Source of the DNA: an uncultured Alphaproteobacteria bacterium
GTDB lineage: Bacteria; Pseudomonadota; Alphaproteobacteria; Puniceispirillales; Marisalimonadaceae
DNA length: 64,000 nucleotides
Assembly (NCBI GenBank): GCA_937142855.1
Contig: CAKZQZ010000031.1
Span: 2,201-66,200 of the forward strand
Reading direction: 5' to 3'
In this document: positions 1,025 to 49,355 of the stretch, in pieces
Numbering within the stretch: position 1 is the stretch's first letter
Layout of the letters: each line of letters begins with the position of its first letter
Notes under the pieces: model-generated
Told to the model about the DNA's origin: nothing
What the model saw: the letters and a program-made list of their open reading frames with translations, nothing else
The model's database searches: none
Translations under genes and position numbers: made by a program

Positions 1025-1714
1025 TTAAACTCCTAAAAACTTTTGTGCAATATCAGTTGTTAATTGCTTTGAAAGACCTTTCCATACGGTCCTACCTTTT
1101 TCAAGAATATAAAATTTATCAGCCAAAGTTTGTAATTGTTTAAGTGATTTATCGATAATTAAAATAGATATATTTTTGTTTTTTAAAATTTCTATAACTT
1201 TCCATATTTCTGATCTAATTGTAGGAGACAAACCCTCTGTTGCTTCATCTAAAATTAATAACCTTGGGTTTGTCATCAATGCCCTTCCAATAACTAACAT
1301 CTGCTGTTCCCCCCCAGATAAAGAGAACGCACCTTGTAACTTTCTTTCTTCAAGTTTTGGGAATAATTCAAAAACTTTTTCTAAAGTCCATTCTCCTTCA
1401 ACTGAAGTTGCAATAAGATTTTCTAAAACTGTTAAATTGGAAAAGGCTCTTCTTCCTTCTGGAACTAAACCTATTCCTAATTGTGCAATTTTATAACTGG
1501 GCATTCCTAAGAGAGATATATTGCTAAAATTAATTTCTCCTTGAAAGTTATTCATTAAACCGCATATCGATTTAATTGTAGTTGATTTACCCATTCCATT
1601 TCTTCCAAGTAAAGCTACAATTTCACCTTCTTTAATTTCTAGATTAACATCAAAGAGTGCCTGGCTAGCGCCATACCAAGCCCTAAGTGATTTTATCTCT
1701 AAAAAATTATTCAT
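1025..1714 (-). CDS. livF: Branched-chain amino acid-type ABC transporter ATPase (LivF family)
   Basis: Walker A GRNGMGKST, signature LSGGEQQ, Walker B LLILDE, GLVPEGRR. Confidence 0.9.
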   Translation of the reverse strand: MNNFLEIKSLRAWYGASQALFDVNLEIKEGEIVALLGRNGMGKSTTIKSICGLMNNFQGEINFSNISLLGMPSYKIAQLGIGLVPEGRRAFSNLTVLENLIATSVEGEWTLEKVFELFPKLEERKLQGAFSLSGGEQQMLVIGRALMTNPRLLILDEATEGLSPTIRSEIWKVIEILKNKNISILIIDKSLKQLQTLADKFYILEKGRTVWKGLSKQLTTDIAQKFLGV

Positions 1715-2463
1715 TAAATCTCATAACCTAAATAAACGTCTCTTACTAATTCATTAGATTTAATCTGATCAACTGTCCCTGTAGCCACTATTCTTCCATA
1801 ATTAATTACTGACACCCTATCAGCTAGGGCAAAAACAGCATCCATATCATGCTCAATTAATAGTATTGGAGTATTTAATTTTATTTTTTTAAATAAATTA
1901 ATCATTATTTTTGTTCCATTTTCATCTAATCCTGCCATTGGCTCATCAAATAAGAACACTTTTGGATTAGTTGCCAATGCAAGCCCTACCTCTAATTTTC
2001 TTCTATCTCCATGACTAAGTTGAGACGCCACTATCTCAGACTTATCTATTAACTCTATTTCTTTGAGTATATTTTTAGCTTTAAAATCTAGGTCTTTATT
2101 GTTTTTTATGTTTTTAAAAAACTGAAAAGTTTTATTCGACCCATTAAGAAGAGATAAAATAATATTCTCTAAAGCACTAAAACTCGGAATTATAGAAGAT
2201 ACTTGAAAAGTTCTAGATATGCCAATTTTAGCTCTTTCAACATCACTTAAATCAGTTATATTCTCTTGGTCTAAAATTATTGATCCTATATCATGCCTAA
2301 CGCTTCCAACTATCTGCTTTATAAGAGTTGATTTACCTGCTCCATTAGGCCCTATTAATGCATGAATCTCATTAAAATTGAGATCAATAGCTATTTCATC
2401 CGTAACCTTAAACGCACCATATGATTTTGATAAATTTTTAATATTTAAAATTTTATTATTCAT
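1714..2463 (-). CDS. livG: Branched-chain amino acid-type ABC transporter ATPase (LivG family)
   Basis: GPNGAGKST, LSHGDRR, FDEPMAG, IEHDMD. Start moved to ATG 2463, which overlaps the upstream stop (ATGAATAA). Confidence 0.9.
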   Translation of the reverse strand: MNNKILNIKNLSKSYGAFKVTDEIAIDLNFNEIHALIGPNGAGKSTLIKQIVGSVRHDIGSIILDQENITDLSDVERAKIGISRTFQVSSIIPSFSALENIILSLLNGSNKTFQFFKNIKNNKDLDFKAKNILKEIELIDKSEIVASQLSHGDRRKLEVGLALATNPKVFLFDEPMAGLDENGTKIMINLFKKIKLNTPILLIEHDMDAVFALADRVSVINYGRIVATGTVDQIKSNELVRDVYLGYEI

Positions 2464-3436
2464 TATTTTTTTTCTTATCAAATAATCCTAATATACCAGA
2501 GCGTACGTATAATATTTCTAGTATTAATATTAAACCCAACCAGAATTGCCAGTTTTCAGTATATGCACCAAGAGTTTGTTCTAATATTATAAAGAAAGCT
2601 GCACCCACAATAGGACCATAAAGTCTTGCCATGCCGCCAAGGATTACAAATATCATTATTTCTCCAGAAGTATGCCAATCAAGAACAGATGGACTTACAA
2701 ATCTATTTAAGTCCGTATAAAGAGAGCCTGCCAAGCCCGCTATTGTACCTGAAATAACAAAAACTATTAGCTTAACCTTTAATGTTTCTATTCCTACAGA
2801 TTTTACTCTTTCTTCATTTTCTTTAATAGCCTGAAACGCCATACCAAAGGCTGAATTAATTAATTTAAAAGATACAAATAAAGCAATCACCAACCACACG
2901 AGACAAATTAAATAAAATGTAAAAGGATCCATTGTATTTACCATTGGAAACGAGTTTCTTAAATAGATTGAAAGGCCATCTTCTCCTCCATACGTAGGCC
3001 AGCTTATTGAGAAAAAATATAACATTTGCGCAAAAGCAAGAGTAATCATAATAAAATAAACACCGCTTGTTCTAAGCGAGAGAAGCCCAATAATAAAAGA
3101 TAGGGCCGCACAGACTAATATTGCTATTGGCCATATTATTAGCATTTCAGATGTACCAAAAAACTCAATTGGCCAACTAAAAAGTAATTCATCGTTAAGA
3201 GCATGAAAAGATAATATTCCTGTTACGTATCCTCCAGTTCCAAAAAAAGCTGCATGTCCAAAAGAAATTAGCCCACAATAACCAAGAGCTAAGTTTAAAC
3301 CAATACCTGCAATAGCGAGTATAATTACCTTAGTTGTTAATGTTATATAATAAGGTTCTTCAAAAACTAGACCACAGAGAGGAATAATTAAAAGCAAAAA
3401 TAATATCCATTTATTTAAAAATTTTTCGATAATCAT
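2456..3436 (-). CDS. livM: ABC transporter permease (LivM family)
   Basis: GLISFGHAAFFG, LRTSGVYFIMITLAFAQ, ILGG...GPIVGA. ATG 3436 lies right after the livH stop. Confidence 0.88.
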   Translation of the reverse strand: MIIEKFLNKWILFLLLIIPLCGLVFEEPYYITLTTKVIILAIAGIGLNLALGYCGLISFGHAAFFGTGGYVTGILSFHALNDELLFSWPIEFFGTSEMLIIWPIAILVCAALSFIIGLLSLRTSGVYFIMITLAFAQMLYFFSISWPTYGGEDGLSIYLRNSFPMVNTMDPFTFYLICLVWLVIALFVSFKLINSAFGMAFQAIKENEERVKSVGIETLKVKLIVFVISGTIAGLAGSLYTDLNRFVSPSVLDWHTSGEIMIFVILGGMARLYGPIVGAAFFIILEQTLGAYTENWQFWLGLILILEILYVRSGILGLFDKKKNNE

Positions 3437-3437
3437 T

Positions 3438-4355
3438 TTAACTTTTTCCAAATAATCCAGAAGGTTTGGTAATTAAAATCAATGCCATGAGAATATAGAT
3501 TAACATTGAACCAATAGAAGACCCTATTGCAGTTGCCTCAGCAGGTTGCATAAAAATTTTAAGTAAATCTGGTAAAAAAACACGTCCTAAGGTGTCTGTA
3601 ACTCCAACTAAAATTGAGCCAACAAAAGCACCCTTTATTGATCCAATACCCCCAATAACTATGACCACAAAAGCTAAAATTAAAATCGGTTCTCCCATAC
3701 CAACTTCAACTGATTGTATGGCACCTATCATCGCCCCAGAAAGTCCTGCAAGAGCTGCTCCTAAAGCAAAGACAACTGTATAAAGTTTTGAAATATCTAC
3801 ACCAAGAGCAGAGATCATTTCACGATCATTCTGCCCGGCTCTAATACGAATACCTAGCCGTGTTTTTGTGATTAATAAGTATAGACCAACAGCTATCAAA
3901 AAACCCATTAATATTATAAACAGTCTATATTTGGAATAAATTATTTCACTAAATATAGGTACAGTTCCATTTAAGCTATCTGGAATACTAAGATATAAAG
4001 GAAAGGCGCCAAAATACCATCTTACTCCCTCAGATAATAACAATATGAGAGCAAAAGTTGCTAAAACTTGATCCAAATGATCTCTTCTATATAATCGTCT
4101 AATTATTAATATTTCAATTAGAACACCTGCGATTGCTGCTCCACATAAGCTGGCTCCTAATGCCAGCCAAAATGAACCTGTTATACCAGCAACCAAAGCT
4201 GCACAGAAAGCGCCTATCATATAGAAAGAACCATGGGCAAGATTTATTAAACCCATGACGCCAAATATTAAAGTTAGCCCAGCAGACATAAGAAACAGCA
4301 TTGTTCCAAATTGTATGCCGTTTAAGAGTTGTTCAATAAATAAGATACTTGTCAT
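3438..4355 (-). CDS. livH: ABC transporter permease (LivH family)
   Basis: GLTLIFGVMGLINLAHG, TRLGIRIRAG, AFVVIVIGGIGSIKGA. Confidence 0.9.
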   Translation of the reverse strand: MTSILFIEQLLNGIQFGTMLFLMSAGLTLIFGVMGLINLAHGSFYMIGAFCAALVAGITGSFWLALGASLCGAAIAGVLIEILIIRRLYRRDHLDQVLATFALILLLSEGVRWYFGAFPLYLSIPDSLNGTVPIFSEIIYSKYRLFIILMGFLIAVGLYLLITKTRLGIRIRAGQNDREMISALGVDISKLYTVVFALGAALAGLSGAMIGAIQSVEVGMGEPILILAFVVIVIGGIGSIKGAFVGSILVGVTDTLGRVFLPDLLKIFMQPAEATAIGSSIGSMLIYILMALILITKPSGLFGKS

Positions 4356-4370
4356 TTAAATATAAAGTCA

Positions 4371-4397
4371 TAGGTGATTTCTACAGGAAATCACCTA
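4371..4397 (-). terminator. Stem-loop between SBP gene and livH (mRNA stabiliser or partial terminator)
   Basis: TAGGTGATTTC-TACAG-GAAATCACCTA, perfect 11-bp stem immediately downstream of the SBP stop. Confidence 0.7.
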
Positions 4398-4407
4398 GAC
4401 ATATAAT

Positions 4408-5544
4408 TTACATTTTACATTCAGAAACATAAACGTTTGAATGATCCTTTAACCCAACAGAAACAATCTTGTTTGTAAGTGTCTTTCCTTCTTTAATGAC
4501 TTCTCTAACATAGATATCTTGTATTGGGTGATGATTTTTATCAAAACTAAATTTTCCTCTTGTAGAAGCAAAATTAGCCTTTCTAAGTTCATCTCTAAAC
4601 TTGTCTTTATCATCAACTTTAGCATTAATCATTGCAGAAATTAAAAGTTTACCTGTGTCGTATCCTTGAGAAGCATATAATGATGGAAGGCGCCCATATT
4701 CAGATTGAAAATCACTGACAAACTTTTTATTTGCTGGGTTATCTATATCTTTAGACCATTGTGAGGTATTTTTTACACCTAATGCAGCATCTCCAACTGC
4801 CTTTAAAATACCTTGATCAAAAGAAAAAGCAGGACCTACAACCGGGACATTGATTCCAGATTGTGAAAATTGTTTCATAAAACCGATTCCCATCCCACCT
4901 GGTAAAAAGAAAAACACACTATCTGCACCTGAAGCTCTGATTTGAGCGATCTCTGCTGCATAATCTTTTTGACCAAGTTTGGTATATATTTCTCCAGCTA
5001 ATTTTCCCTTAAAGAATCTTTTATAACCTGTTAGGGCGTCTTTTCCAGCTGGATAGTTAGGGGCAAGGATAAAGGTATTTTTAAAGCCAGCTGAATTAGC
5101 ATAACCACCAGCTGCTTCATGTAAATTATCATTTTGCCAAGCAACATTAAAATAATTTTTATGACAACCTTTGCCTGCTAGCTTAGATGGTCCAGCATTA
5201 GGTGATAAATAGAATTTCCCTTGATTAACAGCAGCTGGTACAACTGCCATAGCTAAATTAGACCAAATAATTCCAGTAAGAACATCAACTTTGTCAGATT
5301 GTATCATCTTGTCGGCTAACTGAACCGCAATATCTGGTTTTCTTTGATCATCTTTTATAATTACACTTATATTTTGATTGCCTTTTACTGCAAGCATAAA
5401 GCCGTCTCTTACATCAATCCCTAAACCGGATCCACCCCCTGATAAAGTAGTTATCATACCAACTTTTAATTGATGACCATCTGCAAAAATGGTTGATGAT
5501 GACATTATCATTAGCGCTGCTAATGTAGTTTTAAGTTTTTTCAT
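4408..5544 (-). CDS. ABC transporter periplasmic substrate-binding protein (LivK/Leu-Ile-Val-binding family; ligand unknown, possibly an aromatic or other carboxylic acid)
   Basis: Signal peptide MKKLKTTLAALMIMSSSTIFA; KVGMITTLSGG, DDQRKPD, SPNAGPS, YASQGYD; heads a complete Liv-type operon. Confidence 0.88.
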   Translation of the reverse strand: MKKLKTTLAALMIMSSSTIFADGHQLKVGMITTLSGGGSGLGIDVRDGFMLAVKGNQNISVIIKDDQRKPDIAVQLADKMIQSDKVDVLTGIIWSNLAMAVVPAAVNQGKFYLSPNAGPSKLAGKGCHKNYFNVAWQNDNLHEAAGGYANSAGFKNTFILAPNYPAGKDALTGYKRFFKGKLAGEIYTKLGQKDYAAEIAQIRASGADSVFFFLPGGMGIGFMKQFSQSGINVPVVGPAFSFDQGILKAVGDAALGVKNTSQWSKDIDNPANKKFVSDFQSEYGRLPSLYASQGYDTGKLLISAMINAKVDDKDKFRDELRKANFASTRGKFSFDKNHHPIQDIYVREVIKEGKTLTNKIVSVGLKDHSNVYVSECKM

Positions 5545-17521: not shown

Positions 17522-18316
17522 TTATAATTTCATCAAATAAGAATAGACTTTTGAGTTGAGTTCTTTAGGTTTTTCAGATTGAAGAAAATGACCACTTTCA
17601 ACCACGTGTGTGTCACATTTTTTTATCAACTGAACAAATTTTAAACCAGATTTTATTGGGGTCATTTGATCATTTCTAGCTAAAACAGCAAGAGCTGGTG
17701 TTTCAATACTTTTAGCAGCTTCTAAACCATCCTTATAATTATTACATGCATGTAAATCATAATTTAAACTCTTTGGCTTGTTCATACCCATGACATTATT
17801 AGCTTCACCATAGTGAGAGTGACCTGGCCAATTGTTTACAGACATATCTCCGTCTATTCCGTGTCCCCATGTCACCATCATATTTGAAGCTTTACGTTCA
17901 TTAGTCAAAGATAAATCCAATAAATATTGATTAACTGGGATTTCATTTGAACCTGCTACAAATATAATGCCACTAAGTATTTCAGGATAAAGTCTATTAA
18001 GTTCTAAGGCTACTAAACATCCTTGAGAATGACCTAAAACAACTAATTTTTTAACCTTCAAATAAATTAATAAGTCATGAATCCAATCAGCATTTTCTTT
18101 TATTGATTTGCAAGGCGTTCCTTCAGATAAACCGTGAGCAGGCATATCAGGTACTATTACAGAATACCCTTTGTAAGCAAAAAATCTTGCCTGTTGAACA
18201 AAACTTAAATGATTTTGACCTGCTCCATGAAGAAAGCATATTGTGGTTTTGCTATTATCTAATTTTTTCCCTCCAGTGCCAACATACGTATCAGCTCCTT
18301 TAAAATTTATTAACAT
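17522..18316 (-). CDS. Alpha/beta hydrolase
   Basis: FLHGAG, DMPAHG, nucleophile GHSQG, acid DQMTP, His GHFL; overlaps the metY stop. Confidence 0.88.
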   Translation of the reverse strand: MLINFKGADTYVGTGGKKLDNSKTTICFLHGAGQNHLSFVQQARFFAYKGYSVIVPDMPAHGLSEGTPCKSIKENADWIHDLLIYLKVKKLVVLGHSQGCLVALELNRLYPEILSGIIFVAGSNEIPVNQYLLDLSLTNERKASNMMVTWGHGIDGDMSVNNWPGHSHYGEANNVMGMNKPKSLNYDLHACNNYKDGLEAAKSIETPALAVLARNDQMTPIKSGLKFVQLIKKCDTHVVESGHFLQSEKPKELNSKVYSYLMKL

Positions 18317-19611
18317 CTAGCACCCAATTTTTTTACAGCTTTAAAACCTTTTTCAAAATCTTTTTTAATATCATTAATATCCTCAAGGCCCACAGAAAGT
18401 CTAATCATATCGTCAGTCAGACCACCTTCTTTCATTGCTTCAGCGCTTAAGTGGGAATGTGTTGTGCTCCCAGGATGAATTAGAAGTGTTTTGGCATCAC
18501 CTACATTTGCAAGGTGTGAAGCTAATTGAACAGACTCAATAAAAACTTGTCCAGCTTCTCGGCCTCCTTTAATACCAAAAACAATTATTGACCCAGAACC
18601 TTTGGGCAATATTTTCTTTGCAACCTCATGGTCTGGATGCGTCTTCAAGTCAGGATGCTTTACCCATGCTACTTCTTCATGGTTTTGAAGAAAATCTAGC
18701 ATTTCATGAGTATTTTCAATATGTTTTTTCATTCTCAATGGTAACGTTTCTATCCCTTGCATAAGGTAAAAAGCATTAGTTGGTGACAAAGAGGGACCAA
18801 AATTATACATTCCCTCAGCTCTTATTTTAGCTATTAAAGCAGAAGGACCAAATTCTTCCCAAAAACTTATTCCACCGAGTGCAAAATGTGGACCTGAAAT
18901 AGTTGGAAATTTATCTCTGTCCCCCCAATCAAAGTTTCCGCCATTGACAACAGCTCCTCCTATAGCAATACCATGTCCACCTAACCATTTTGTTAGAGAA
19001 TGGATCACAATGTTAGCTCCATATTTAAATGGTTGCATCAAATATGGTGTATTAAAAGTGGCATCAAGCACTAGAGGCACATTGTACTTTTTACATATAT
19101 CAGCAATGGTTGGGACATCCATTATATCTAACCCAGGATTTCCTATGACTTCTCCAAAGACCATCTTTGTGTTAGGTTTAATAGCTTTTTCAATTGCTTC
19201 TGGGTCGTTTGGGTTTACAAAATCTGTGTTAACTCCAAATCTCGGCATTGTATGTTGAAGTAAGTTAATATTAGCTCCATACATTTTACTTGAAGCAACA
19301 ATATGATCTCCACTGCTACAAATTGTAGAAACAACTAAATGCATAGCAGCCATACCACTAGAGCAAGCAACTGCGCTTGCACCTCCTTCTAAGGCAGCTA
19401 ATCTTTGTTCTAGTGCTGCAACTGTTGGATTTGAAATTCTTGTATAAAGATGTCCTCCAACCTCCATATTATACAATGAAGCAGCTTCTTCTGTGCTGTT
19501 GAAAACATATGACGTTGTCTGATAAATTGGTACTGCTCGAGATCCAGTTTCTTTATCAGGAATGTGCCCTGCATGCAAAGAGAGTGTATCAAACTTATAA
19601 TTTTCACTCAT
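18310..19611 (-). CDS. metY: O-acetylhomoserine aminocarboxypropyltransferase/sulfhydrylase (MetY family), copy 1
   Basis: LHAG, PIYQTTSYVF, YTRISNPT, HSLTKWLGGHG (PLP Lys), HLANVGDAKTL, IRLSVGLE. Confidence 0.9.
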   Translation of the reverse strand: MSENYKFDTLSLHAGHIPDKETGSRAVPIYQTTSYVFNSTEEAASLYNMEVGGHLYTRISNPTVAALEQRLAALEGGASAVACSSGMAAMHLVVSTICSSGDHIVASSKMYGANINLLQHTMPRFGVNTDFVNPNDPEAIEKAIKPNTKMVFGEVIGNPGLDIMDVPTIADICKKYNVPLVLDATFNTPYLMQPFKYGANIVIHSLTKWLGGHGIAIGGAVVNGGNFDWGDRDKFPTISGPHFALGGISFWEEFGPSALIAKIRAEGMYNFGPSLSPTNAFYLMQGIETLPLRMKKHIENTHEMLDFLQNHEEVAWVKHPDLKTHPDHEVAKKILPKGSGSIIVFGIKGGREAGQVFIESVQLASHLANVGDAKTLLIHPGSTTHSHLSAEAMKEGGLTDDMIRLSVGLEDINDIKKDFEKGFKAVKKLGARC

Positions 19612-45246: not shown

Positions 45247-47052
45247 ATGAGTATATCAAGTAATGCATTTGAAGATGAAGATATTTTTATTGCAGATATT
45301 TTATCTAAAAATAAAATAATAGCTATGGTTGGGGCTAGTAAGAATTGGAAACGCCCCTCTAACTTTGTCATGAAATATCTTCAGAAACATGGGTACACAG
45401 TTATACCTATAAACCCTGGTAATGCAGGTCAATATATTCTGGATGAATTATGCTATGCATCCCTTCAAGATGTACCTATTAAAATAGATATGGTTAATAT
45501 ATTCAGACCTAGTGAGTTTTGTGCTTCGATTACTAAAGATGCAATAAGTATTGGTGCTAAAACTGTTTGGATGCAATTAGGTATTAAAAACGAAGAAGCT
45601 ATTAATTTAGGCAAAAAAGCAAAAATAAATGTTATTTATGATAAATGTCCAAAAATGGAACATTCAAGGTTATCTGGCGCACTTGGATTAGCTGGCTTTA
45701 ATTCACGATTAATTTCTTCAAAAAGACCTGTTGTTAAAAAACCACCATCAGCTTCAAGAAATGGAGGAATTGTAAAAACTAATGAATTAGAAACACTTGC
45801 TATACATGCAGGAACTAGACCTGATGCCTCAACTGGATCAAGAAGTATTCCAATTTATCAAACAACTTCTTTTACATTTGATGATATAGATCATGCAGCA
45901 AGCTTATTTAACCTTCAAGAACCAGGAAATATTTATGCTCGATTGTCTAATCCTACAATTTCTGCTCTAGAACAAAGAATAGCAGCTTTAGATGATGGCT
46001 TAGGCGCCTGCTGCGCCTCATCTGGGCATGCCGCACAAATGCTAGCTTTATTTCCTTTAATGGAGCCTGGGGCAAAAATAATTGCTAGTTCTAAATTATA
46101 TGGGGGTTCTATTACTCAATTTACTAAAACATTTAAAAACTTCTCTTGGGATGCTGAATTAGTTGATGTGTCTGATTTAGATGCTGTTAAGGATGCTGTT
46201 AAAGATGTTTCTGTAAAAGTTTTATTTGCTGAAAGTTTAGCTAACCCTGACGGAAATATAACCGATATTACATCTCTTGCAGATATAGCTCATGAAGCTG
46301 GTATTCCACTTGTAATTGATAACACAATGGCAACACAAATTTTATGTCAACCTGGAAAATTTGGAGCTGATTTAATTGTTTACTCAACAACAAAATTTTT
46401 ATCAGGACATGGAAACGCAATGGGTGGAGCTGTTGTAGATATGGGAAACTTTCCTTGGGATAAGGGTAGAGTATTTTCAAAACTAACAACTCCCGATTCT
46501 TCCTATCATGACATTAATTTTTATGAAAGTTTTGGAAACCATGCATTTATCAATTATTGCCATGCAAGTGTACTAAGAGATCTAGGATCAACAATGGCTC
46601 CTTTAAATGCATATTTAACGCTAATCGGTTTAGAAACTCTTCCGTTAAGAATGAAACAACACATGAAAAACGCGGAACTAGTTGCCAATTTTCTTAAAGA
46701 CCATCCAAAGGTAAATTACGTGTCTTGGGCAGGCTTTAAAGAAAATATTTATCATGAATTAGCAAAAAAATATTTTAAAGATGGGTTTGGTTCAGTTTTT
46801 ACATTTTCTGTAAATAGTGGATATGAAGGAGCCATAAAATTAGTAGAAAATTGCAACTTAATATCTCATCTTGCAAACGTAGGTGATACTAGGTCATTGA
46901 TTGTACATCCTGCATCAACGACACATAGACAACTGAATAATGAACAAAAAGAAAAATCTGGAGTTAGTGACTCTATAATTCGTTTGTCAATTGGACTAGA
47001 AAGTCATAAGGATATTATCGGTGACTTAGAAGGGGCTTTATCCAAAATATAA
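45247..47052 (+). CDS. metY: Fusion: YccU-like CoA-binding domain + O-acetylhomoserine sulfhydrylase (MetY family), copy 2
   Basis: N-terminal IAMVGAS..RPS..VM.YL..GY.VIPINP...WMQLG...CPKMEH, then a linker, then AIHAG, PIYQTTSF, YARLSNPT, YSTTKFLSGHG, HLANVGD, IRLSIGLE in one 601-aa frame. Confidence 0.88.
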   Translation: MSISSNAFEDEDIFIADILSKNKIIAMVGASKNWKRPSNFVMKYLQKHGYTVIPINPGNAGQYILDELCYASLQDVPIKIDMVNIFRPSEFCASITKDAISIGAKTVWMQLGIKNEEAINLGKKAKINVIYDKCPKMEHSRLSGALGLAGFNSRLISSKRPVVKKPPSASRNGGIVKTNELETLAIHAGTRPDASTGSRSIPIYQTTSFTFDDIDHAASLFNLQEPGNIYARLSNPTISALEQRIAALDDGLGACCASSGHAAQMLALFPLMEPGAKIIASSKLYGGSITQFTKTFKNFSWDAELVDVSDLDAVKDAVKDVSVKVLFAESLANPDGNITDITSLADIAHEAGIPLVIDNTMATQILCQPGKFGADLIVYSTTKFLSGHGNAMGGAVVDMGNFPWDKGRVFSKLTTPDSSYHDINFYESFGNHAFINYCHASVLRDLGSTMAPLNAYLTLIGLETLPLRMKQHMKNAELVANFLKDHPKVNYVSWAGFKENIYHELAKKYFKDGFGSVFTFSVNSGYEGAIKLVENCNLISHLANVGDTRSLIVHPASTTHRQLNNEQKEKSGVSDSIIRLSIGLESHKDIIGDLEGALSKI

Positions 47053-47182: not shown

Positions 47183-48538
47183 ATGGACGGATTATGTTGT
47201 GGCCCAGGTTACGCTAGCCCCTCTGAAGCTATTAAAGCGCCCAGAGAAAAATTATTATATACCATAGCAATTTATACTGGGACTGGAATTCAAAAACCAG
47301 ACTATCTTGCTACTATTGATATAGATCCAGATAGTCCAAATTATTCAAAAGTTATTCATAGACTTGAAATGCCTGGCATTGGAGATGAACTTCATCATAT
47401 GGGTTGGAATGCATGTTCTTCATGTCATAATGATGAAAAAATGAGTCGTAAATACTTACTAGTACCTGGCGTTCGTTCTAATAATATATATGTAGTTGAT
47501 ACTGCCACTAATCCTATGTCACCAAGTATTTATAAAATAATTGATGGATCTGAAATTAAATCTAAAACTAATCTTTCAGGACCACATACAGTTCATTGTT
47601 TAGGGTCTGAAATTATTATTTCTTTTCTTGGAGATGCTAAAGGGGAAGCACCAGGAGGGTATTTGCATCTGAATAAAGATTTTGAAATTGTAGGTCGTTG
47701 GGAAAAATCTATGGGAAATATCCCTTTTAGTTATGACTTTTGGTACCAGCCACGCCATAACGTTATGATTAGTTCAGAATGGGCGGCACCAAACACTTTT
47801 ATGCCAGGATTTGATCTAGAAGAAGTTGGGCACTTAAAATATGGCCGTCGATTACATATTTGGGACTTTGAAAAGAAAAAACCAATTGAAACAATGTATT
47901 TAGGTGAGGATGGGCTTATACCGCTTGAAGTTAAGTTTTTACATAACCCTAATAGTAGCCATGGATTTTGTGGTGCCGCCCTAAGCACAAATGTAATTCA
48001 TTTCTGGAAATCTGAAGAAGGAAAATGGGAATGGGAAAAAATCATTGATGTCGATAATGAACCCCACCCAGATTGGCCAATTCCTATACCTGGTGTAATG
48101 TCGGCGATTTTAGTTTCAATGGACGACAAATATCTTTATATAAACAACTGGCTTCATGGTGATTTACGCCAATATAATATTTCTGATCCTCATAAACCTA
48201 TTCTAACTGGACAGATATGGATGGGCGGTCTTTTAGATAAAGCCCCTATTGTAAATGGAGTAAAAATTGCGGGTGGTCCACAAATGTATCAATTATCCTT
48301 AGATGGTAAGAGAATGTACGTAACAACCTCTCTTTTCTCAACATGGGATAATCAATTTTATCCAGAAATTCGTACTCAGGGTGGCGTTATGCTCATGATT
48401 GACTGTGACGTAGAAAATGGAGGCATGAAAATTAATGAGGATTTTGTTGTTGATTTTGGAAAAGAACCTAATGGACCCAGCAGATGTCACGAAAGCCGTT
48501 ACCCAGGAGGCGATTGTACAAGTGATATTTGGTTATGA
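47183..48538 (+). CDS. Selenium-binding protein SBP56/SELENBP1-like (methanethiol oxidase family), cytoplasmic
   Basis: CCGPGYASP, DYLATID.DP.SP, DELHHMGWNACSSC, HTVH, YDFWYQPRHNVMISSEW, NWLHGD, GGPQM, STWDNQFYP, RYPGGDCTSDIW; AAGGAG RBS; no signal peptide. Confidence 0.92.
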   Translation: MDGLCCGPGYASPSEAIKAPREKLLYTIAIYTGTGIQKPDYLATIDIDPDSPNYSKVIHRLEMPGIGDELHHMGWNACSSCHNDEKMSRKYLLVPGVRSNNIYVVDTATNPMSPSIYKIIDGSEIKSKTNLSGPHTVHCLGSEIIISFLGDAKGEAPGGYLHLNKDFEIVGRWEKSMGNIPFSYDFWYQPRHNVMISSEWAAPNTFMPGFDLEEVGHLKYGRRLHIWDFEKKKPIETMYLGEDGLIPLEVKFLHNPNSSHGFCGAALSTNVIHFWKSEEGKWEWEKIIDVDNEPHPDWPIPIPGVMSAILVSMDDKYLYINNWLHGDLRQYNISDPHKPILTGQIWMGGLLDKAPIVNGVKIAGGPQMYQLSLDGKRMYVTTSLFSTWDNQFYPEIRTQGGVMLMIDCDVENGGMKINEDFVVDFGKEPNGPSRCHESRYPGGDCTSDIWL

Positions 48539-48900
48539 ATAAAATTACGATTGCTAATCGTGACAATAATTTTTTTAAAGTTAAAGGATCAAAACCTTTA
48601 CTCCATGAATTACGTGCCCAAGGACTTGATCTACCATACGGTTGTCAGTATGGTGGTTGCATAACGTGTGCTGCCAAACTTATAAAAGGTGAAGTTGACC
48701 AACGATCTCAAGTTGCTCTTAATAATAGACAAATAAATGACGGTTATGTAATTTTATGTGTGGCTCGCGCTAAAACTGATTGCACTTTCGAAATTGGCGT
48801 TGAAAGTCATGACAAGCTCTATCGTAATCCCTTTATAGACCCCCTTGCTTCTCATGAATTAAAAGCCAATATCGCAACCAAGAAGGATGTTAAGTCATGA
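48535..48900 (+). CDS. Plant-type [2Fe-2S] ferredoxin with C-terminal extension
   Basis: LPYGCQYGGCITC (CX4CX2C) and ILCVAR. ATG 48535 overlaps the SBP56 TGA (ATGA). Confidence 0.88.
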   Translation: MNKITIANRDNNFFKVKGSKPLLHELRAQGLDLPYGCQYGGCITCAAKLIKGEVDQRSQVALNNRQINDGYVILCVARAKTDCTFEIGVESHDKLYRNPFIDPLASHELKANIATKKDVKS

Positions 48901-49355
48901 ACTTTATGAATCATAATGAAGCTTACGATGATGATTATTTACAAGACATCCTTAGCTCAGTTAAAACTATTGCGATGGTTGGAGCTAGCCCAGATAAAAC
49001 AAAATTTAGTTATGGGGTACTCCGCGTTTTAAGTGAAACTGGTTATGATATGATACCAGTCAACCCAAAACCAAACCTTCATGAAATCAGGAATCTAAAA
49101 GTTTATCCAAATCTAAAGGCTATTGATAGACCTGTCGATATGGTTGAAGTTTTTCGAAAATCTGAGGATTTATATAACGTTACTGAAGATGCTATAGCTA
49201 TCAACGCTAAAGTTATATGGGCACAAATTGGTGTTATTGACCATAATGCTGCAAAGCTTGCAGAGAAAGCTGGTTTAAAGGTAGTTATGAACCGATGTCC
49301 AAAAATTGAACTCTTTCGACCTTTTTGGAAACCTCGACTTGATCTTAAAATCTAA
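48897..49355 (+). CDS. CoA-binding protein (YccU family)
   Basis: TIAMVGASP, MIPVNP, DMVEVFRKS, WAQIGV, MNRCPKIE; ATGA overlap with the ferredoxin stop. Confidence 0.88.
   Translation: MNFMNHNEAYDDDYLQDILSSVKTIAMVGASPDKTKFSYGVLRVLSETGYDMIPVNPKPNLHEIRNLKVYPNLKAIDRPVDMVEVFRKSEDLYNVTEDAIAINAKVIWAQIGVIDHNAAKLAEKAGLKVVMNRCPKIELFRPFWKPRLDLKI

What the first reader, a model, noticed from the sequence alone, without database searches (positions are those of the whole stretch)
45247..47052. Rosetta-stone fusion of a YccU-like CoA-binding domain to MetY
Seen: one uninterrupted 601-aa frame with a full CoA-binding domain ending at ...NSRLISSKRP, a Pro/Lys-rich linker (VVKKPPSASRNGG), and a complete MetY with PLP Lys (YSTTKF). 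A GGAGG at 45763-45767, just before the MetY part, has no usable in-frame start and may be a relic of the ancestral RBS. Known: YccU-family proteins have no established function and often neighbour metY in Alphaproteobacteria; MetY-type enzymes can use sulfide or methanethiol with O-acetylhomoserine. Inference: the fusion implies a direct functional link, such as CoA/acetyl-CoA sensing, recapture of released acetate, or in situ acyl donation, and offers a route to the function of the YccU family.
Basis: partly seen in the sequence, partly recalled or inferred. Interest (0 to 1): 0.75.

Follow-up and report, generated by a model that had tools for sequence, protein, structure and literature searches.

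The report
CoA-binding domain fused to MetY
A marine SAR116 bacterium makes its homocysteine/methionine-forming enzyme MetY as one chain with a small CoA-binding protein of unknown function; the two are normally separate but tightly coupled neighbouring genes in over a quarter of sampled Alphaproteobacteria, which gives the uncharacterised YccU family a concrete, testable partner.

Summary
Window 45247-47052 (+) is one uninterrupted 601-aa frame. It carries a YccU-type CoA_binding_2 domain (aa 24-139), a conserved 25-30-aa tail, a short variable linker and a complete MetY-type O-acetylhomoserine (thiol)-lyase with its PLP lysine.

It is not an assembly artefact. More than 115 protein clusters from independent assemblies share the architecture at 59-94% identity, including a cultured Candidatus Levibacter isolate.

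The fusion is a rare covalent form of a common module:
- In 301 alphaproteobacterial species genomes, 84 (28%) have a tail-bearing yccU-like gene directly upstream of metY. Only 4 of these are fused.
- The fusion arose at least twice and was re-split at least once.
- A reverse-order MetY-CoA_binding_2 fusion exists in another MetY clade.
- The two parts co-diverge (Mantel r 0.83).

A direct functional, probably physical, link is therefore well supported. The mechanism is not settled. I favour an accessory or regulatory CoA/acyl-CoA-binding subunit docked on MetY through its tail.

Acyl donation in place of MetX/MetA is disfavoured, because 82 of 83 module genomes keep MetX or MetA. The GGAGG simply encodes a conserved Gly-Gly. 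The neighbouring SBP56-ferredoxin-YccU2 cassette is a recent insertion. No paper on the association was found.

The parts
45247..47052 (+). 601-aa fusion ORF (YccU-type CoA-binding domain + tail + linker + MetY), stop codon included
   Evidence: ORF; Pfam and NCBIfam matches; full-length homologues
45316..45663 (+). CoA_binding_2 (PF13380) Rossmann-type domain, aa 24-139. The motifs VGAS....RPS, IPxNP, DxVxxFR, WxQ and CPK.EH are invariant or nearly so across 50 fused homologues.
   Evidence: E 6e-37; best solved relative is 2DUW, a putative CoA-binding protein, E 2e-35. Conserved (invariant or nearly invariant) columns. AF2 pLDDT is about 90 over aa 11-140.
45646..45726 (+). Conserved C-terminal tail of the CoA-binding partner, aa 134-160 (CPKMEHSRLSGALGLAGFNSRLISSKR). 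This is the signature of the MetY-linked YccU subfamily. In split forms it reads CPKIE[YF]xRLxGELGWxGxN[ST]GVISSKRR.
   Evidence: Of the 105 YccU-like hits that have the tail, 84 lie directly upstream of metY; hits without the tail mostly do not.
45727..45789 (+). Variable Pro/Lys-rich linker followed by the conserved R-N-G-G (aa 161-181). GGAGG at 45763-45767 encodes Gly173-Gly174.
   Evidence: Gly-Gly codons vary among relatives. AF2 confidence is low over aa 141-170.
45790..47040 (+). MetY-type O-acetylhomoserine (thiol)-lyase domain, aa 182-598. Catalytic set Y285, D358, K383 (PLP lysine, codon 46393-46395) and R561 is invariant.
   Evidence: best solved relative is 7KB0, Thermotoga maritima O-acetylhomoserine sulfhydrylase, E 1e-127. 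Invariant columns.
47183..48538 (+). Context: SBP56-family protein (predicted methanethiol oxidase type), first gene of a 3-gene cassette inserted downstream of the fusion only in the closest relatives
   Evidence: 677 bits against PF05694; only 153 bits against MtoX NF052453, cut-off 650
48529..48900 (+). Context: 2Fe-2S ferredoxin; its start overlaps the SBP56 stop by 10 nt
48897..49355 (+). Context: stand-alone YccU-type CoA_binding_2 protein (152 aa, no tail, about 39% identical to the fused domain); its start overlaps the ferredoxin stop by 4 nt

Best explanation
The gene encodes a covalently joined version of a two-protein module, tail-bearing YccU-like protein plus MetY, that is widespread in Alphaproteobacteria.

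Shown by sequence:
- The C-terminal 430 residues are a catalytically intact MetY.
- The N-terminal 140 residues are a YccU-type Rossmann domain with its ligand-binding motifs intact.
- The domain is followed by a 25-30-residue conserved tail.

Inferred from family membership: MetY replaces the O-acyl group of activated homoserine with sulfide to give homocysteine, or with methanethiol to give methionine. In this organism MetA supplies the activated homoserine.

Inferred from genomic evidence: in split forms the tail docks the small protein onto the MetY oligomer at 1:1 stoichiometry, and here the tail has become part of the linker.

Inferred and untested: the domain binds CoA or an acyl-CoA and acts as an accessory or regulatory subunit. 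It would tie the last irreversible step of direct sulfhydrylation to the state of the CoA/acetyl-CoA pool that feeds the acyltransferase step. This is comparable in logic to regulatory subunits or domains attached to biosynthetic enzymes, and to the acetyl-CoA-sensing ACD-like domain of Pat acetyltransferases (recalled from the literature, not tested here).

In this lineage the gene lies next to a recently inserted SBP56-ferredoxin-YccU2 cassette, and the genome lacks sulfite reductase. The enzyme therefore probably assimilates reduced sulfur derived from methanethiol or DMSP.
For: - Domain calls and catalytic residues.
- The fused frame is conserved in more than 115 clusters and in 23 named SAR116 genomes, including a complete Ca. 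Levibacter isolate genome.
- Split, translationally coupled pairs with the same tail occur in a sister genus and at the same chromosomal site in a near relative.
- At class level, 84 of 301 genomes carry tail-bearing yccU directly upstream of metY, with a median gap of 44 nt; 4 are fused.
- The MetY tree shows at least two independent fusions and one re-split.
- A reverse-order MetY+CoA_binding_2 fusion exists in another MetY clade.
- The N-domain and MetY parts co-diverge at equal rates: Mantel r 0.83, 0 of 2000 permutations reached it, slope 1.0.
- After the main fusion event the tail's Glu and Trp (GELGW) were replaced (GLLGLGGF). The earliest-branching fused member and the independent G097 fusion keep them. 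This fits a relaxed need for non-covalent docking.
- MetA is present, and MetX and sulfite reductase are absent, in the window's genome.
Against: - No binding or activity data exist, and ligand identity is inferred only from family membership.
- The AF2 monomer model gives no confident inter-domain packing: pTM 0.69, tail pLDDT 55-63. Docking is therefore not shown structurally.
- No regulatory logic for CoA acting on MetY is known from the literature searched.
- Fusion and operon linkage would equally fit a substrate- or sulfur-donor-presenting role, or a purely structural role.
- The substrate (O-acetyl- or O-succinyl-homoserine) and the nucleophile (sulfide or methanethiol) are not resolved.
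Confidence: 0.45

Rival explanations
1. Sulfur-donor presentation. The YccU-type domain holds CoA by its nucleotide end and presents the thiol end, as CoA persulfide or another CoA-bound sulfane sulfur, to the MetY active site. Homocysteine would then be made from sulfane sulfur rather than free sulfide. This would be analogous to MetY or CysM enzymes that take sulfur from protein thiocarboxylates.
For: - A second YccU-type gene is translationally coupled to an SBP56 (methanethiol-oxidase family) gene and a ferredoxin. The cassette recurs at 76-85% identity in genomes of two other families.
- Other MetY fusions in the representative library carry domains that may handle sulfur donors: Prok-JAB and Lactamase_B.
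- The window's genome has no sulfite reductase.
- Unchecked scan notes report a rhodanese-metY-yccU operon elsewhere.
- An invariant Cys (C134) sits at the end of the domain exactly where the tail starts. From memory it corresponds to the Cys next to the CoA thiol in succinyl-CoA synthetase alpha; this was not tested.
Against: - No persulfide-forming enzyme is conserved next to the module. Neighbourhoods differ between lineages.
- Glutathione, not CoA, is the usual low-molecular-weight thiol of Alphaproteobacteria (general knowledge).
- The SBP56 cassette is limited to the closest relatives.
- There is no biochemical precedent for CoA persulfide as a MetY substrate.
Confidence: 0.15
2. Structural or scaffolding role without ligand-dependent control. 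The small protein stabilises the MetY oligomer or tethers it to the homoserine acyltransferase (MetX or MetA) so that O-acylhomoserine is channelled. The CoA site would serve only to recognise the CoA-loaded acyltransferase or would be vestigial.
For: - The tight 1:1 coupling and repeated fusions fit any stable complex.
- The module is enriched in genomes with MetX: 69 of 83, against 167 of 301 overall.
- Unchecked scan notes report metX-metY-yccU operons.
Against: - The ligand-binding motifs of the domain are invariant across fused homologues at 59-94% identity, which argues for a maintained ligand site.
- MetX and MetA are unlinked to the module in the alphaproteobacterial genomes sampled (coordinates).
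Confidence: 0.2
3. Acyl chemistry by the fused domain. It would donate the acyl group to homoserine in situ as a non-canonical acyltransferase, or recapture released acetate as acetyl-CoA.
For: The window's genome lacks MetX.
Against: - The window's genome has MetA/HTS.
- 82 of 83 module-bearing genomes have MetX or MetA; the one exception is an 810-contig, 7%-contaminated assembly.
- The protein has only the CoA-binding domain 1 of the NDP-forming acyl-CoA synthetase architecture. It has no ATP-grasp, ligase or phosphohistidine domain.
Confidence: 0.05
4. Artefact or decaying accident: a mis-assembly, or a recent read-through of a stop codon with no selective value.
For: None, beyond the fact that split neighbours differ from the fusion by as little as one stop codon in the same frame.
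Against: The identical architecture occurs in more than 115 clusters from ENA, JGI, NCBI, Tara and Logan assemblies and in a complete isolate genome. The fused clade is old, down to 59% identity, with both parts under equal constraint.
Confidence: 0.01

Closest known systems
MetY / O-acetylhomoserine sulfhydrylase (TIGR01326; e.g. Thermotoga maritima OAHS PDB 7KB0, Thermus thermophilus 2CTZ)
   Same: Full-length match (aa 176-601). Phmmer E 1e-127 to 7KB0. The PLP lysine and the Y, D and R catalytic set are conserved. The score is above the TIGR01326 cut-off.
   Different: It carries a 175-residue N-terminal CoA-binding domain plus tail, which no solved MetY chain has (solved chain lengths 421-464). 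It scores below the cut-offs of all equivalog-level NCBIfam MetY models, for example NF004650 at 580 against 667. It is the third MetY paralogue in this genome.
YccU / COG1832 stand-alone CoA-binding proteins (PF13380; PDB 2DUW, 2D59 PH1109, 1IUK TT1466)
   Same: Same domain over its whole length and the same conserved motifs; E 2e-35 to 2DUW.
   Different: It belongs to a subfamily marked by a conserved 25-30-aa C-terminal tail and by obligate adjacency to metY. The solved proteins and the window's own YccU2 lack the tail.
Cysteine synthase complex (serine acetyltransferase CysE + O-acetylserine sulfhydrylase CysK)
   Same: By analogy only, from established knowledge: an acetyl-CoA-linked protein binds a PLP-dependent O-acyl-amino-acid sulfhydrylase through a conserved C-terminal tail.
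   Different: The partner here is not an acyltransferase. CysK and MetY are different PLP fold types (II and I). The CysE tail needs a free C-terminal Ile, whereas this tail is basic at its end and tolerates being an internal linker. No complex has been demonstrated.
Reverse-order MetY-CoA_binding_2 fusions and metY-yccU operons
   Same: The same two families are joined (P0122: MetY aa 8-422, CoA_binding_2 aa 467-581).
   Different: The order is opposite and the linker differs. The MetY belongs to a different clade, grouping with the window genome's C56 paralogue. The reverse-order metY-yccU operons themselves are known only from unchecked earlier scan notes.

Membership tests
MetY-type O-acetylhomoserine (thiol)-lyase (TIGR01326 / PF01053) | Full-length match to the family profile above the curated cut-off | tested here: met
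   TIGR01326 scores 552.7 bits against a 495.1 cut-off. PF01053 covers profile positions 1-380 of 381.
MetY-type O-acetylhomoserine (thiol)-lyase (TIGR01326 / PF01053) | PLP-binding lysine in the S-T-T-K motif, plus the Asp (DNT), Tyr (LYGG) and C-terminal Arg (THRQ) of the fold-type I gamma family | tested here: met
   K383, D358, Y285 and R561 are invariant in 50 fused homologues and align with 7KB0. The roles of the residues are assigned from general knowledge of the family.
MetY-type O-acetylhomoserine (thiol)-lyase (TIGR01326 / PF01053) | Catalyses gamma-replacement of O-acetylhomoserine with sulfide or methanethiol | not testable with these tools
   Needs an enzyme assay. The genome supplies activated homoserine through MetA, but the acyl group is unknown.
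YccU / CoA_binding_2 (PF13380, COG1832) | Full-length domain match above the gathering score | tested here: met
   127 bits against a 22.8 cut-off, profile positions 2-115 of 116. E 2e-35 to 2DUW.
YccU / CoA_binding_2 (PF13380, COG1832) | Binds CoA | not testable with these tools
   Only motif conservation can be shown. No docking or binding measurement was possible.
Rosetta-stone (composite versus split) gene pair | The same two components occur as separate genes in other genomes, and the split components are the closest relatives of the fused parts | tested here: met
   Split pairs form the grade from which the fused clade emerges. A split pair occupies the same chromosomal site in a near relative.
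Rosetta-stone (composite versus split) gene pair | Association is more than chance adjacency | tested here: met
   84 of 105 tail-bearing YccU-like genes are directly upstream of metY, against few of the 45 without a tail. There are independent fusions in both orders. The parts co-diverge with r 0.83.
Cysteine-synthase-like regulatory complex | The partner's C-terminal tail inserts into the sulfhydrylase active site, and the complex responds to the O-acyl substrate and to sulfide | not testable with these tools
   Considered only as an analogy. The AF2 monomer model is uninformative on the tail.

The most novel reading that the evidence does not exclude
YccU-type domains are thiol or persulfide carriers. 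By holding CoA they would deliver CoA-bound sulfane sulfur, or position the CoA thiol, at the active site of sulfhydrylases. This would define a new sulfur-donor route to homocysteine in bacteria that lack sulfite reductase, and would explain why a second YccU paralogue rides with a methanethiol-oxidase-ferredoxin cassette.
Probability: 0.12. Interest if true: 0.85.

Novelty: new variant of a known kind. Interest (0 to 1): 0.6.

Why it matters
YccU/COG1832 proteins have solved structures but, to my knowledge, no assigned function. MetY is the key enzyme of direct sulfhydrylation and of methanethiol assimilation in marine bacteria.

About 28% of sampled alphaproteobacterial species encode a tail-bearing YccU-like protein translationally coupled to MetY, and the pair has fused repeatedly in both orders. 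This points to an unrecognised subunit of a central sulfur-assimilation enzyme.

The fusion protein offers a single-chain, fixed-stoichiometry form for biochemistry and structure work. A cultured SAR116 isolate (Ca. Levibacter sp.) carries it. I found no paper describing the association in the open literature searched.

For ocean sulfur cycling, it concerns how abundant SAR116 cells that lack sulfite reductase turn DMSP-derived sulfur into methionine.

Tried and rejected
1. **RBS relic.** The Gly-Gly codons vary among relatives (GGT GGA, GGC GGA, GGG GGG, GCG GGG). GGAGG appears only where the first codon happens to be GGA, the commonest Gly codon of this AT-rich gene. Rejected as evidence.
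2. **Riboswitch or leader control.** An Rfam gathering scan of the whole window gave 0 hits. The promoter and terminator scan was at chance level.
3. **General SBP56 link.** The SBP56-Fer2-YccU2 cassette follows the fusion only in species at 88% identity or more. In the other 18 or so SAR116 genomes the fusion is followed directly by the convergent ECH1 gene. In distant fused homologues the neighbours differ: a PF02574 S-methyltransferase in one, nothing shared in the others.
4. **AF2 monomer.** With a 50-sequence alignment both domains fold, but the tail and linker are low-confidence and pTM is 0.69. This gives no information on docking.
5. **Acyltransferase replacement.** Tested by MetX and MetA presence and rejected.
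6. **Literature.** Ten searches (YccU, COG1832, PF13380, CoA-binding + metY, sulfhydrylase or acetylhomoserine, TT1466/PH1109) found nothing on the association.
8. **NCBIfam naming of neighbours.** The scan gave only generic names such as enoyl-CoA hydratase and choline-dehydrogenase-like GMC, and no DmdB/C/D assignment.
Full report
**Observation**

Window 45247-47052 (+) is a single 601-aa ORF with an ATG start and no internal stop.
- Pfam places CoA_binding_2 (PF13380) at aa 24-139 (E 6e-37) and Cys_Met_Meta_PP (PF01053) at aa 182-598 (E 2e-117).
- NCBIfam TIGR01326, the OAH/OAS sulfhydrylase subfamily, scores 552.7 bits against a cut-off of 495.1. The equivalog-level MetY models all fall below their cut-offs.
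- The nearest solved relatives are 2DUW, a stand-alone putative CoA-binding protein (E 2e-35), for the N-domain, and Thermotoga maritima O-acetylhomoserine sulfhydrylase 7KB0 (E 1e-127) for the rest. No solved chain has both parts.
- The PLP lysine is K383 (codon 46393-46395).

**Not an artefact**

- A search of 5.8 billion clustered proteins returned more than 115 clusters with the same two-domain architecture. They are 594-611 aa long and 59-94% identical, and come from ENA, JGI, NCBI, Tara and Logan assemblies. Sources name them only 'PLP-dependent transferase' or 'O-acetylhomoserine (thiol)-lyase'.
- Named genome records place the gene in SAR116 (Puniceispirillales). The closest are a MAG at 94% and the complete genome of Candidatus Levibacter sp. 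Uisw_134_01 at 93%.
Cross-assembly conservation makes this unnecessary for the general claim.

**Anatomy**

An alignment of 118 and then 50 fused homologues shows three things:
- The CoA-binding domain keeps its family motifs invariant or nearly so: VGAS....RPS, PxNP, DxVxxFR, WxQ and C134-x-K-x-E-H.
- Residues 134-160 (CPKMEHSRLSGALGLAGFNSRLISSKR) are conserved beyond the Pfam domain boundary.
- Only about aa 161-172 is a variable Pro-rich linker. It is followed by a conserved R-[ND]-G-G and then MetY, whose Y285, D358, K383 and R561 are invariant.

The GGAGG at 45763-45767 encodes Gly173-Gly174. In relatives these glycines use GGT GGA, GGC GGA, GGA GGC, GGG GGG and other codon pairs. The conservation is therefore at the amino-acid level, and the nucleotide motif is a by-product of the preferred GGA codon.

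**Split forms**

- In another genus of the same order, a 183-184-aa YccU-like gene directly precedes a 445-aa metY with an ATGACTAA or ATGA overlap. Its product ends CPKIEFGRLSGELSWLGVNSGIITSK..., which is the same tail.
- A metagenomic contig carries a 429-aa stand-alone MetY (P0117) that is 84% identical to the window's MetY part and 93% identical to the MetY part of a fused protein from another species of the window's genus (G020). It is preceded by a gene fragment ending ...CPKIEYGRLFGELSWFGINSGIISSKRLKK, with an ATGA overlap.
- That MetY is followed by the same convergent enoyl-CoA hydratase gene as in the window's genus.

**How common the module is**

I searched 301 alphaproteobacterial species genomes (at least 90% complete) with the whole protein and with the N-domain alone, then cross-referenced the coordinates.
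- 105 of the best 150 YccU-like matches carry the tail.
- 84 of those 105, in 84 genomes or 28% of the sample, lie directly upstream of metY on the same strand.
- Of the 84, 71 are separate genes (median gap 44 nt), 9 are in the same frame with a stop between, and 4 are truly fused.
- YccU-like matches without the tail are mostly elsewhere in the genome.

Within the window's own genus only 5 of 37 genomes have the fused gene. The fusion is thus a rare covalent state of a very common operon.

**History of the fusion**

- In a maximum-likelihood tree of the MetY parts, split-module MetYs form a grade. One strongly supported clade (100/97) holds all SAR116, Magnetospiraceae and related fusions.
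- G097 is an independent fusion outside that clade.
- P0117 is a re-split nested inside it.
- The minimum number of state changes is 3.
- The earliest-branching fused member (G178) and G097 keep the split-type tail (GELSW...). The inner fused clade changed it to GLLGLGGF.
- In the 50%-identity representative library, P0122 is a reverse-order MetY (aa 8-422) + CoA_binding_2 (aa 467-581) fusion. Its MetY groups with a different clade.
- Unchecked notes from this scan report metY-yccU operons and C-terminal fusions in at least 12 other genomes.
- N-domain and MetY distances co-vary: Mantel r 0.83, 0 of 2000 permutations reached it, slope 1.0.

Together these results support a direct, probably physical, partnership.

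**Context in this genome**

- The genome is 2.3 Mb and estimated complete. It has two further MetY-type genes, a 395-aa MetZ/MetB-like gene and MetA/HTS. It has no MetX and no NIR_SIR sulfite reductase, so it depends on reduced sulfur.
- The MetY part of the fusion is 50-61% identical to the main alphaproteobacterial MetY, but only 42-45% identical to the genome's other two paralogues.
- Across 23 SAR116 genomes the gene sits between a divergent GMC oxidoreductase/acyl-CoA dehydrogenase block and a convergent enoyl-CoA hydratase. Only the four or five closest species have SBP56-Fer2-YccU2 inserted downstream.
- That cassette, chained by 10-nt and 4-nt overlaps, recurs at 76-85% identity in genomes of two other families. 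SAR116 SBP56/SELENBP1-type proteins are predicted methanethiol oxidases (PMC12262181).
- The placement suggests, but does not show, that methanethiol-derived sulfide feeds this MetY.

**Mechanism**

Shown: the MetY part is intact, the ligand motifs of the CoA-binding domain are intact, a conserved tail exists, and the two proteins form an evolutionary unit.

Inferred: the tail docks the small protein on MetY, and the domain binds CoA or an acyl-CoA and modulates or assists MetY.

| Model | My confidence |
|---|---|
| Accessory or regulatory CoA/acyl-CoA-binding subunit | 0.45 |
| Purely structural or scaffolding role | 0.2 |
| Sulfur-donor presentation (for example CoA persulfide) | 0.15 |
| Acyl donation or acetate recapture | 0.05 |

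- The sulfur-donor model draws on the second YccU-SBP56 link, on Prok-JAB and Lactamase_B fusions to MetY in other organisms, and on the invariant Cys at the start of the tail.
- Acyl donation or acetate recapture is disfavoured. 69 of 83 module genomes have MetX and 13 of the other 14 have MetA. No ligase or ATP-grasp domain is present.
- The AF2 monomer model (mean pLDDT 80, pTM 0.69, tail pLDDT 55-63) does not discriminate between the models.

**Novelty**

The architecture is present in public databases under generic names. Ten full-text searches found no paper on a YccU-MetY association or fusion. I class it as a new variant of a known kind: MetY with an uncharacterised, widely conserved accessory CoA-binding subunit, here covalently attached.

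Noticed in passing
window 47183-49355: SBP56 (451 aa), a 2Fe-2S ferredoxin (123 aa) and a tail-less YccU-type protein (152 aa) are chained by 10-nt and 4-nt overlaps. The same three-gene cassette occurs at 76-85% identity in genomes of two other alphaproteobacterial families, which suggests a mobile methanethiol-oxidase unit with its own YccU paralogue. The SBP56 scores 677 bits on Pfam SBP56 but only 153 bits on the bacterial MtoX model (cut-off 650).
   Followed up: partly
whole genome G000 (C39:24625-25515 for MetA): The estimated-complete genome has no NIR_SIR sulfite reductase and no MetX. It has MetA/HTS, three MetY-type genes and one MetZ/MetB-like gene. This suggests dependence on reduced sulfur, with several parallel sulfhydrylases.
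   Followed up: partly
window 17522-19611 (-): A second MetY paralogue (432 aa; NF006004 634.7 bits, just under its 636 cut-off) overlaps by 7 nt a 264-aa alpha/beta hydrolase that has no NCBIfam match. The pair is flanked by two AMP-binding acyl-CoA ligases. Other scan notes also report metY-hydrolase pairs.
   Followed up: no
P0136, P0192, P0253, P0177: Other MetY fusions exist in the representative library: Prok-JAB+MetY, MetY+GNAT acetyltransferase, Lactamase_B+MetY, and Ala_racemase_N/D-Ser-dehydratase+MetY.
   Followed up: no
L087 (G097:C8) 1649-5052: The independent G097 fusion is followed on the same strand by two further YccU-like copies (3484-3891 and 4747-5052).
   Followed up: no
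L043 1-150: The split pair P0117 is nested inside the fused clade by its MetY sequence, but the tail of its upstream partner is of the split type (GELSWFGINSGIISSKR). This suggests replacement by recombination rather than simple re-insertion of a stop codon.
   Followed up: partly
L039 3591-7836 and L041 3809-8069: In the split-module SAR116 genus, the yccU-metY pair lies downstream of what looks, from ORF sizes and N-terminal sequences alone, like an N-methylglutamate/gamma-glutamylmethylamide (methylamine utilisation) gene set. No domain scan was run on these ORFs.
   Followed up: no
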